DNA from: Escherichia coli
GTDB taxonomy: Bacteria > Pseudomonadota > Gammaproteobacteria > Enterobacterales > Enterobacteriaceae
Reading direction: 5' to 3' (one strand)
DNA: 64,000 bases
Assembly: GCF_017348835.2 (NCBI RefSeq)
Contig: NZ_CP071375.1
In this document: positions 53,088 to 53,542 of the stretch, in pieces
Numbering within the stretch: the first letter of the stretch is position 1
Layout of the letters: every line of letters begins with the position of its first letter
Notes under the pieces: generated by a model
The model's input: the letters and a program-made list of their open reading frames with translations, nothing else
Databases searched by the model: none
What the model was told of the DNA's origin: nothing
Translations under genes and position numbers: made by a program

Positions 53088-53120
53088 TTGTGTTTCGCTG
53101 AAAGGCGATTGTTGTGTTAA

Positions 53121-53150
53121 GCCGGAGCGGGAGACTGCTCCGGCTTTTTA
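53121..53150 (+). terminator. rho-independent terminator of the deo operon
   Basis: gccggagc-gggagact-gctccggc followed by ttttta. Confidence 0.7.
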
Positions 53151-53247
53151 GTATCTATTCATCAATAGCAACTGATTTATAGATTTACTATTATTTTTCA
53201 TATGGATAGAAAATAAAATACATTCAAGTATCTATTCACGAATCTAT

Positions 53248-53511
53248 TCATTTATGTTCAGCCGTCATCCAGGAAGGGCATATCAGCAACTCTGGTGGAC
53301 AACCATAAATTTCTGCCATTTTGCTTTTGATGTTTGAACTAAGTCGTTCCGTCTTTTCGATCTGTTTTAGAGAATTAATCGAGATACCTAACATTTTACT
53401 TACTTCAGCAAGCGATAATTTATGCCTGATACGCACGGCGGCTAGCCAGGAAATACGCTGGCTGAACATTAAATTGATAATCTCCCGTTCCTGGTTTTCC
53501 AGATCGATCAT
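53248..53511 (-). CDS. small XRE/Cro-type helix-turn-helix protein, 87 aa, directly downstream of lplA
   Basis: ATG at 53511 with AGGAAGG ribosome-binding site 31 nt after the lplA stop; HTH signature LSLAEVSKMLGISINSLKQIEKTER. Confidence 0.6.
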   Translation of the reverse strand: MIDLENQEREIINLMFSQRISWLAAVRIRHKLSLAEVSKMLGISINSLKQIEKTERLSSNIKSKMAEIYGCPPELLICPSWMTAEHK

Positions 53512-53542
53512 ATTTCCTTCCTTGGATATTTTAATCAGCGAG

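What the first reader, a model, noticed from the sequence alone, without database searches (positions are those of the whole stretch)
53088..53542. Small HTH-only gene directly downstream of lplA at the locus where K-12 encodes the HipA-like kinase YjjJ
The deoD-lplA interval is only 455 bp here and has no yjjJ. An 87-aa ORF with a classic XRE/Cro helix-turn-helix starts 31 nt after the lplA stop with a strong ribosome-binding site, so it is probably co-transcribed with lplA. YjjJ-family HipA-like kinases are described as carrying an N-terminal HTH domain. One hypothesis is that this ORF is the HTH domain left after deletion of the kinase domain, which would make it a toxin-less regulator remnant. 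Alternatively it is an independent strain-specific regulator.
Basis: partly seen in the sequence, partly recalled or inferred. Interest (0 to 1): 0.5.

Follow-up and report, generated by a model that had tools for sequence, protein, structure and literature searches.

The report
Orphan antitoxin-like HTH gene replacing hipH
Most E. coli strains lack the toxin kinase gene hipH (yjjJ) that K-12 carries between deoD and lplA, and have in its place a small, unrelated DNA-binding gene that resembles the DNA-binding half of plasmid and phage antitoxins and is already broken in nearly half of its carriers.

Summary
deoD ends at 53087 and lplA ends at 53543, so the gap is 455 bp. It holds an 87-aa XRE-type HTH ORF (53248-53511, minus strand) that starts 31 nt after the lplA stop, behind an AAGGAAGGA ribosome-binding site.

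The favoured interpretation, a YjjJ/HipH HTH remnant, is refuted. The ORF lies on the opposite strand to hipH. It has no protein or DNA similarity to hipH (hhalign 36% over 27 columns).

Its nearest relatives are 118-133-aa HTH antitoxins (hhalign 99.3%, E 3e-20; phrog_7241). In all five intact contexts examined these follow a RelE/ParE toxin gene on plasmids, phages or metagenome contigs. The ORF keeps only their C-terminal DNA-binding half and has no toxin partner.

It is not strain-specific. Of 5426 complete E. coli genomes, 4073 carry it and 1348 carry hipH, and the two are essentially mutually exclusive. hipH sits at this site in Salmonella and Citrobacter, so it is ancestral there. The ORF-bearing haplotype still keeps the hipH start codon and the upstream ATCTATTCA repeats.

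Intact alleles show purifying selection (dN/dS about 0.14-0.25). However, 1691 genomes share an amber stop at codon 50 and 141 share a frameshift.

Verdict: a real, uncharacterised, dispensable orphan regulator of modest interest.

The parts
53248..53511 (-). 87-aa XRE-family HTH ORF (WP_000566150.1). It corresponds to the C-terminal DNA-binding half of RelE/ParE-associated antitoxins.
   Evidence: ORF list; Pfam HTH_3 1.2e-6; phrog_7241 positions 54-121 of 122, E 3.4e-10; hhalign 99.3% to the antitoxin family; AF2 pLDDT 88; PGAP CDS.
53512..53542 (-). 31-nt spacer between the lplA stop and the ORF start. It contains the AAGGAAGGA ribosome-binding site, and no terminator was predicted in it.
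   Evidence: Sequence; terminator and promoter scan; junction fold shows only weak local structure.
53543..54559 (-). lplA (lipoate-protein ligase A), the upstream gene with which the ORF is probably co-transcribed.
   Evidence: ORF and annotation; 99.6% identical to K-12 lplA at its 3' end.
53257..53543 (.). Haplotype-specific 287-bp segment that occupies the place of the 1330-bp hipH coding sequence of K-12. It is 41% GC, against 52-57% in the neighbouring genes.
   Evidence: Breakpoints from blastn and the alignment with K-12; GC content; present in 4073 of 5426 genomes.
53254..53256 (+). Relic hipH start codon ATG. Read on the minus strand it is the His86 codon of the ORF.
   Evidence: Alignment with K-12, where homology ends at the yjjJ ATG.
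53227..53253 (+). Proximal 12-bp tandem repeats containing ATCTATTCA, a relic of the hipH upstream regulatory region.
   Evidence: Repeat finder. The same repeats lie just upstream of hipH in K-12, a human-stool yjjJ strain (L014), Salmonella, Citrobacter and a further genus. Copy number varies between 2 and 3.
53150..53166 (+). Distal copy of the ATCTATTCA repeat, directly after the deoD terminator.
53119..53146 (+). deoD intrinsic terminator hairpin.
   Evidence: Terminator scan; conserved in both haplotypes.
52368..53087 (+). deoD (purine nucleoside phosphorylase), the left boundary of the locus.

Best explanation
The ORF is a real, small XRE-family DNA-binding protein. It is not derived from hipH. 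It descends from the DNA-binding (C-terminal) domain of a toxin-first RelE/ParE-HTH antitoxin of the kind carried by plasmids and phages.

Shown: at the deoD-lplA junction the ancestral enterobacterial gene hipH was replaced, from its second codon to its stop, by a 287-bp AT-rich segment carrying this gene on the opposite strand. The hipH start codon and the upstream ATCTATTCA repeats were left behind as a scar.

Inferred: the gene is transcribed with lplA and translated from its own strong ribosome-binding site. The protein lacks the N-terminal extension of its antitoxin relatives and has no toxin neighbour, so it can only act as a stand-alone operator-binding repressor, probably as a dimer. 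Its target has not been identified.

The gene is selectively maintained where intact but is dispensable. One amber allele and one frameshift allele together account for about 45% of carriers.
For: Identity and fold: Pfam HTH_3; AF2 pLDDT 88 with best Foldseek matches CylR2, SinR, P22 C2 and C.BclI.

Origin: an exhaustive HMMER search of 1.84 billion representatives finds only the Escherichia cluster, one 44%-identical ortholog (P0079), and then 95-133-aa HTH proteins. The ORF hits phrog_7241 over positions 54-121 only, at E 3.4e-10, whereas P0081 and P0102 hit it full length at about 1e-33. hhalign of the ORF family against the antitoxin-like family gives 99.3%, E 3e-20, 43% identity over 69 columns. 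Five of five intact relatives examined lie immediately downstream of a RelE/ParE toxin gene: L009, L010, a Leclercia plasmid, Enterobacteria phage PPyecE_EH1910 and a Serratia plasmid. The ORF is 41% GC against 52-57% in its neighbours.

Replacement of hipH: the breakpoints fall exactly at the yjjJ ATG and the lplA stop. hipH is syntenic (deoD > hipH > < lplA) in Salmonella, C. freundii and another genus. The ATCTATTCA repeats upstream of hipH are conserved in all of these and retained in the window.

Population: 4073 genomes carry the ORF segment and 1348 carry yjjJ, summing to 5421 of 5426.

Selection: dN/dS is 0.14 among intact E. coli alleles, 0.26-0.46 against cryptic clades, and about 0.22 against the 44% ortholog. 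For lplA, ytjB and deoD it is 0.03-0.05.

Dispensability: the Q50-amber allele is in 1691 genomes and a 1-nt deletion allele in 141. PGAP flags them as 'internal stop' or 'frameshifted'.

Co-transcription: 31-nt gap, a ribosome-binding site, and no terminator or convincing promoter between lplA and the ORF.
Against: No expression data were available, so co-transcription and translation are inferred from sequence only.

The link to antitoxins rests on homology of the HTH domain alone. XRE domains are promiscuous, so common descent from a non-TA regulator cannot be excluded.

No trace of a toxin gene or of the antitoxin N-terminal region remains at the locus.

The cross-genus ortholog (P0079, L003) is a single 1.4-kb contig from one sequencing run, and its cluster has one member.

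No operator was identified.

The high frequency of null alleles leaves open that the protein has little function in present-day E. coli. Conversely, dN/dS of 0.14 among intact alleles argues against pure decay.
Confidence: 0.6

Rival explanations
1. The ORF is the N-terminal HTH domain of YjjJ/HipH, left behind after deletion of the kinase domain.
For: It lies at the same chromosomal site as hipH. HipH does have an N-terminal HTH at residues 15-34 (PMC8262856). A true hipH 5' remnant exists in strain WB61.
Against: The ORF is on the opposite strand. BLASTP finds nothing. hhalign gives 36% over only 27 columns at 22% identity. blastn finds no DNA similarity in either orientation. The ORF has its own distinct homologs. 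Its GC content is 41%, against 54% for yjjJ.
Confidence: 0.02
2. The ORF is a functional alternative cassette to hipH. The small HTH protein binds the retained ATCTATTCA repeats, or the relic hipH promoter drives regulated antisense transcription into the ORF and lplA. On this view the two haplotypes are maintained by balancing selection.
For: The two states are mutually exclusive, at 75% and 25%, and both span several lineages. The repeats and the hipH ATG are retained although the roughly 60-nt spacer between them is only about 45% identical between haplotypes. The ORF ends inside the repeat block. Both haplotypes are old, because the ORF haplotype is shared with cryptic clades at lplA dS of about 0.25.
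Against: The two HTH types are unrelated. The repeats in ORF-bearing haplotypes show erosion, with loss of one 12-bp unit, point changes, and ATG changed to GTG in L006. The 44% ortholog in L003 has no such repeats downstream. About 45% of carriers have null alleles. No binding data exist.
Confidence: 0.1
3. The ORF is an orphan antitoxin that acts against incoming RelE/ParE-HTH modules, by repressing their promoters or giving anti-addiction protection against plasmids or phages.
For: Its closest relatives are antitoxins of such modules on enterobacterial plasmids and phages. There is purifying selection on intact alleles, and the recognition-helix region (residues 34-56) is invariant among the E. 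coli alleles sampled.
Against: It lacks the N-terminal 45-55 residues present in all the toxin-linked relatives, so direct toxin neutralisation is unlikely. Identity to the mobile-element antitoxins is only 31-43%. This rival was not tested here.
Confidence: 0.1
4. The ORF is a functionless relic, or a spurious ORF, that merely persists downstream of lplA.
For: 1832 of 4073 carriers have a premature stop or a frameshift. Many other truncated variants appear in protein databases. dN/dS is several-fold higher than in the neighbouring genes.
Against: The 87-codon frame is kept across cryptic clades and in a 44%-identical ortholog. dN/dS is 0.14-0.25 among intact alleles. It has a strong ribosome-binding site and a confident fold prediction.
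Confidence: 0.15

Closest known systems
HTH antitoxins of toxin-first RelE/ParE modules (PHROG phrog_7241). Examples: WP_225988006.1 on Leclercia plasmid pZ96-1_2 and BCI50128.1 of Enterobacteria phage PPyecE_EH1910.
   Same: The C-terminal XRE HTH domain is homologous (hhalign 99.3%, 43% identity over 69 columns). Shared motifs are S-(W/L)-L-x-A-x-R, the turn LGI(S/T) and A-E-(I/V)-Y-(G/N)-C.
   Different: The ORF lacks the N-terminal extension of about 50 residues. There is no RelE/ParE gene next to it. It is chromosomal, fixed downstream of lplA, and not on a mobile element.
HipH (YjjJ) of E. coli K-12, a HipA-family kinase with an N-terminal HTH.
   Same: It occupies the same chromosomal slot between deoD and lplA. 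The window keeps the hipH start codon and upstream repeats.
   Different: There is no sequence relationship. The ORF is on the opposite strand, has a different HTH type, and has no kinase domain.
HipB antitoxin (XRE HTH partner of HipA).
   Same: Both are small XRE-family HTH proteins.
   Different: Neither the ORF nor its family profile matched HipB chains in the PDB at E up to 10 and up to 1 respectively. Only the antitoxin-like relatives match HipB, weakly and generically, at E 3e-4. There is no hipA neighbour.
Small stand-alone XRE repressors (CylR2, SinR N-domain, P22 C2 N-domain, R-M controller C proteins).
   Same: These are the best structural matches of the AF2 model (TM 0.55-0.77 over 53-60 residues). 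They are the same size class and presumably bind DNA in the same dimeric operator-binding mode.
   Different: Sequence identity is only 16-30% among the listed matches. The ORF has an extra N-terminal helix (residues 4-18) and a C-terminal tail. Its genomic context is unrelated.

Membership tests
YjjJ/HipH N-terminal HTH domain (remnant) | Sequence similarity to HipH residues 1-100 | tested here: not met
   BLASTP finds no meaningful alignment. hhalign against nine HipH N-termini gives 36% probability over 27 columns at 22% identity.
YjjJ/HipH N-terminal HTH domain (remnant) | Colinear with, and on the same strand as, the hipH start and promoter | tested here: not met
   The ORF is on the minus strand and hipH is on the plus strand. 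The relic hipH ATG at 53254-53256 is read as a His codon of the ORF.
YjjJ/HipH N-terminal HTH domain (remnant) | DNA homology of the segment to yjjJ | tested here: not met
   blastn with word size 7 on both strands finds none between 53257-53543 and yjjJ.
XRE / Cro-C1 HTH (Pfam HTH_3, PF01381) | Profile match to the HTH_3 domain | tested here: met
   i-Evalue 1.2e-6, residues 23-76, covering model positions 1-55 of 55.
XRE / Cro-C1 HTH (Pfam HTH_3, PF01381) | Five-helix lambda-repressor-like fold | tested here: met
   The AF2 model has pLDDT 88. Its top Foldseek PDB matches are CylR2, SinR, P22 C2, 434 Cro and C proteins. This is a prediction, not an experiment.
RelE/ParE-associated HTH antitoxin (phrog_7241 type) | Homologous HTH domain | tested here: met
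   phrog_7241 at E 3.4e-10; hhalign 99.3%, E 3e-20.
RelE/ParE-associated HTH antitoxin (phrog_7241 type) | N-terminal extension of about 50 residues preceding the HTH | tested here: not met
   The ORF aligns only to profile positions 54-121 of 122, and the alignment shows the N-terminal block absent.
RelE/ParE-associated HTH antitoxin (phrog_7241 type) | Adjacent upstream RelE/ParE toxin gene | tested here: not met
   The upstream gene is lplA, 31 nt away. No other ORF or ParE-like sequence lies in the interval.
RelE/ParE-associated HTH antitoxin (phrog_7241 type) | Neutralises a cognate toxin or autoregulates the TA promoter | not testable with these tools
   This requires co-expression and promoter-binding experiments.
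HipB antitoxin | Specific similarity to HipB and a hipA neighbour | tested here: not met
   The PDB searches with the ORF and with its family profile list no HipB chain, and there is no hipA or hipH in the interval.

The most novel reading that the evidence does not exclude
hipH and the small HTH gene are two long-lived, mutually exclusive cassettes at one regulatory site. On this reading the retained ATCTATTCA operators and relic hipH promoter remain active in the hipH-less haplotype. They would either be bound by the small HTH protein or drive signal-responsive antisense transcription over the ORF and lplA. The polymorphism would then be maintained by selection rather than being a simple loss of a toxin gene.
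Probability: 0.08. Interest if true: 0.55.

Novelty: new member of a known kind. Interest (0 to 1): 0.3.

Why it matters
HipH/YjjJ is studied in K-12 and in one UPEC strain as an E. coli toxin kinase linked to cell division, persistence and c-di-GMP signalling (PMC9948734, PMC11452175). In this census only 25% of complete E. coli genomes carry it, and O157:H7, O104:H4 and O111:H8 isolates sampled here carry the small HTH gene instead, so conclusions about HipH cannot be generalised across the species.

The small gene that replaces hipH is uncharacterised. It is an example of a solitary DNA-binding domain derived from an antitoxin and fixed in a housekeeping operon. It also comes with natural null alleles in thousands of sequenced strains, which makes its function easy to test.

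The conserved ATCTATTCA repeats upstream of hipH in several genera are a concrete candidate operator for hipH regulation. The papers consulted did not mention them.

Tried and rejected
1. hipH remnant. Rejected by BLASTP, hhalign, blastn and strand.

2. HipB-like antitoxin. Neither the ORF nor its profile gave a HipB hit.

3. Known RNA element in the interval. Rfam in E-value mode found nothing relevant.

4. A promoter of the ORF's own. The only sigma-70-like match overlaps the start codon and would start transcription inside the ORF.

5. Defence-system membership. PADLOC gives only the generic HTH_VI and weak RmrA/CapH HTH matches.

6. NCBIfam. No family reached its cut-off.

7. Species scan of GTDB representatives. 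It found only two further Escherichia loci, so the organism of the 44% ortholog could not be named. Its cluster is a singleton.

8. Literature. No paper mentions the ORF. My guessed locus tags (Z5987, ECs5343 and others) returned only unrelated papers.

9. E. coli 'plasmid' hits. These are chromosome-sized records, not evidence of mobility.

10. Long-range complementarity between the ribosome-binding site and the 3' end of the ORF (13 nt, 85%). Judged compatible with chance and not pursued.

Full report
**Observation.**
- deoD is 52368-53087 on the plus strand and lplA is 53543-54559 on the minus strand, so the interval is 455 bp.
- The interval contains one credible ORF, 53248-53511 on the minus strand, of 87 codons.
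- The ORF's ATG lies 31 nt after the lplA stop codon, behind AAGGAAGGAAAT.
- The consensus scan finds no terminator between lplA and the ORF. The only promoter-like match overlaps the start codon.
- Pfam assigns residues 23-76 to HTH_3 at 1.2e-6.
- RefSeq annotates the ORF as WP_000566150.1, 'helix-turn-helix domain-containing protein'.
- The window is 100% identical across this interval to E. coli PE164.

**Not a hipH remnant.** In K-12, hipH (yjjJ) lies on the plus strand between deoD and lplA, opposite to the ORF.
- BLASTP of the ORF against HipH gives nothing.
- A profile-profile comparison with nine HipH N-termini reaches only 36% probability over 27 columns, which is the generic helix-turn-helix motif.
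- blastn with short words on both strands finds no similarity between the 287-bp ORF-bearing segment and yjjJ.
- Homology to K-12 stops exactly at the hipH ATG (window 53254-53256) on one side and resumes at the lplA stop codon on the other.
- A true 5' remnant of yjjJ does occur, but in strain WB61, on the plus strand, and is flagged as a pseudogene.

**What the ORF is related to.**
- A word-indexed search found only Escherichia and Shigella proteins.
- An exhaustive HMMER search of 1.84 billion cluster representatives added one 44%-identical 87-aa protein (P0079). After that came a set of 95-133-aa HTH proteins at E 1e-7 to 5e-4.
- P0079 is encoded 64 nt downstream of an lplA that is about 79% identical in DNA to the lplA of Escherichia, Citrobacter and Salmonella alike. 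It is followed by REP-like sequence and a convergent deoD. The lplA-HTH-deoD arrangement therefore exists in another genus. This rests on a single 1.4-kb contig whose protein cluster has one member.
- The longer relatives belong to PHROG phrog_7241. P0081 and P0102 match it full length at about 1e-33. The ORF matches only positions 54-121 of 122, at 3.4e-10, four orders of magnitude better than any generic HTH family.
- hhalign of the ORF family against these proteins gives 99.3% probability, E 3e-20 and 43% identity over 69 columns.
- In every intact context examined the relative sits directly after a RelE/ParE toxin gene. The five contexts are two metagenome contigs, a Leclercia plasmid, Enterobacteria phage PPyecE_EH1910 and a Serratia plasmid.
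- The ORF lacks their N-terminal extension of about 50 residues and has no toxin neighbour.
- It is 41% GC, against 52-57% for its neighbours and 54% for yjjJ.
- The AlphaFold2 model (pLDDT 88) has the five-helix XRE core plus an extra N-terminal helix. It matches CylR2, SinR, P22 C2 and R-M controller proteins.
- PDB sequence searches give only generic XRE hits and no HipB.
- I conclude that the ORF most likely descends from the DNA-binding domain of a RelE/ParE-type antitoxin. It fails two defining features of a TA antitoxin, so I do not file it as one.
- By analogy with other toxin-first modules, the missing N-terminal segment would be the toxin-neutralising part. That comes from my own recollection and was not tested here.

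**History of the locus.** hipH orthologs are widespread in Enterobacterales.
- In Salmonella enterica, Citrobacter freundii and a further genus, hipH lies in the same place: deoD, then hipH, then convergent lplA, with 4-20 nt between the two stop codons. hipH is therefore the ancestral occupant.
- Upstream of hipH, all of these genomes share a distal ATCTATTCA just after the deoD terminator region and two or three tandem 12-bp copies directly before the ATG. A promoter-like TTGACA-17-TTAAAT lies between them in Salmonella.
- The window retains the distal copy (53150-53166), the proximal copies (53227-53253) and the ATG. The roughly 60-nt spacer between them is only about 45% identical to K-12.
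- Among ORF-bearing haplotypes, the repeats vary in copy number and carry point changes.
- The simplest reading is that the hipH coding sequence was replaced by the foreign ORF-bearing segment, leaving the hipH regulatory region as a slowly eroding scar.
- I cannot say why the scar is still so recognisable. I also cannot say how the same arrangement came to exist in another genus.

**Population picture** in 5426 complete E. coli genomes.
- 1348 carry yjjJ.
- 4073 carry the ORF-specific 286 bp.
- The sum is 5421, so the two states are essentially mutually exclusive and together near-universal.
- K-12 derivatives and several human, animal and extraintestinal isolates carry hipH (yjjJ 96-97% identical to K-12). 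O157:H7, O104:H4, O111:H8 and the window strain carry the ORF.
- The ORF is also present in E. marmotae and cryptic Escherichia clades.
- It is therefore not strain-specific, and K-12 is the minority.

**Selection and decay.**
- Intact E. coli alleles give mean dN 0.015 and dS 0.107, a ratio of 0.14.
- Including cryptic clades, the ratio is 0.23.
- Single comparisons with the cryptic clades give 0.26-0.46.
- Against the 44% ortholog, dN is 0.51 and dS is 2.3 (saturated).
- lplA, ytjB and deoD give 0.03-0.05.
- Residues 34-56, which include the recognition helix, are invariant among the E. coli alleles sampled.
- Against that, a 37-nt probe specific for a CAG-to-TAG change at codon 50, inside the recognition helix, matches 1691 genomes.
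- A probe for a 1-nt deletion allele matches 141 genomes.
- PGAP marks such copies 'internal stop' or 'frameshifted'.
- Four of the eleven loci I opened are broken (three internal stops, one frameshift).
- Other truncated or fused variants appear in protein databases.
- The gene is thus maintained where intact but is clearly dispensable.

**Mechanism, with steps marked.**
- Shown: this is a genuine coding gene with an XRE fold. It is homologous to antitoxin HTH domains, has replaced hipH, and is mutually exclusive with it. It is under purifying selection but has frequent null alleles.
- Inferred: it is co-transcribed with lplA and translated independently. It acts as a small operator-binding repressor, probably dimeric, without a toxin partner. 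It arose from a mobile RelE/ParE module by loss of the toxin gene and of the 5' part of the antitoxin gene.
- Unknown: its DNA target.
- Candidate targets are its own operon promoter, promoters of related TA modules, or the retained hipH repeats. None could be tested here.

**Comparison and novelty.** The ORF works like a stand-alone XRE repressor and is related to TA antitoxins, but it is a member of neither the HipBA nor the ParE-antitoxin systems. None of the papers I could search mentions it. It is a new, uncharacterised member of a very well known kind of protein. The population-level replacement of hipH is useful context for HipH research rather than a new principle.

Noticed in passing
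window 52289-52367: The deoB-deoD spacer is 79 nt and carries a perfect hairpin, CCCTCTCCCTCAGGGAGAGGG. It is unrelated to the 56-nt spacer of K-12, so it is a second small haplotype difference in the deo operon.
   Followed up: partly
L013 2498-2689 (E. coli WB61): A genuine 5' remnant of yjjJ, its first ~140 nt including the HipH HTH region, runs into the 3' end of lplA. PGAP annotates it as an incomplete 'transcriptional regulator' pseudogene. This is a rare third state of the locus.
   Followed up: partly
window 53150-53166 and 53227-53253; L020, L021, L023, L001, L014: ATCTATTCA repeats are conserved upstream of hipH in Escherichia, Salmonella, Citrobacter and another genus. There is one distal copy and 2-3 tandem 12-bp copies abutting the start codon. 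They are a candidate hipH operator that the papers consulted did not mention.
   Followed up: partly
L016, L011, L012 versus the window (alignment): The 12-bp unit GTATCTATTCAC is present in two or three proximal copies, depending on the strain.
   Followed up: no
L015 1-384 (E. coli 2018-06-4CC): An IS200C transposase gene lies between deoD and yjjJ in this hipH-bearing strain.
   Followed up: no
L021 2832-3323: In a non-Escherichia genus, a 163-aa ORF resembling a REP-associated tyrosine transposase (my reading of the translation, not profile-tested) and several copies of a 29-nt repeat sit between deoD and hipH.
   Followed up: no
PLSDB records H121-H128: E. coli 'plasmid' records of 0.4-4.9 Mb carry the ORF. 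They look like chromosomes or chromosome fragments filed as plasmids.
   Followed up: no
window 53321-53575 (+): An 84-aa TTG-start ORF lies antisense to the HTH gene and to the 3' end of lplA. It is most likely spurious and was not searched against any database.
   Followed up: no
window 53271-53283 and 53510-53522: A 13-nt, 85% complementarity links the ORF's ribosome-binding site and a stretch near its 3' end. It could pair in the mRNA but is compatible with chance.
   Followed up: no
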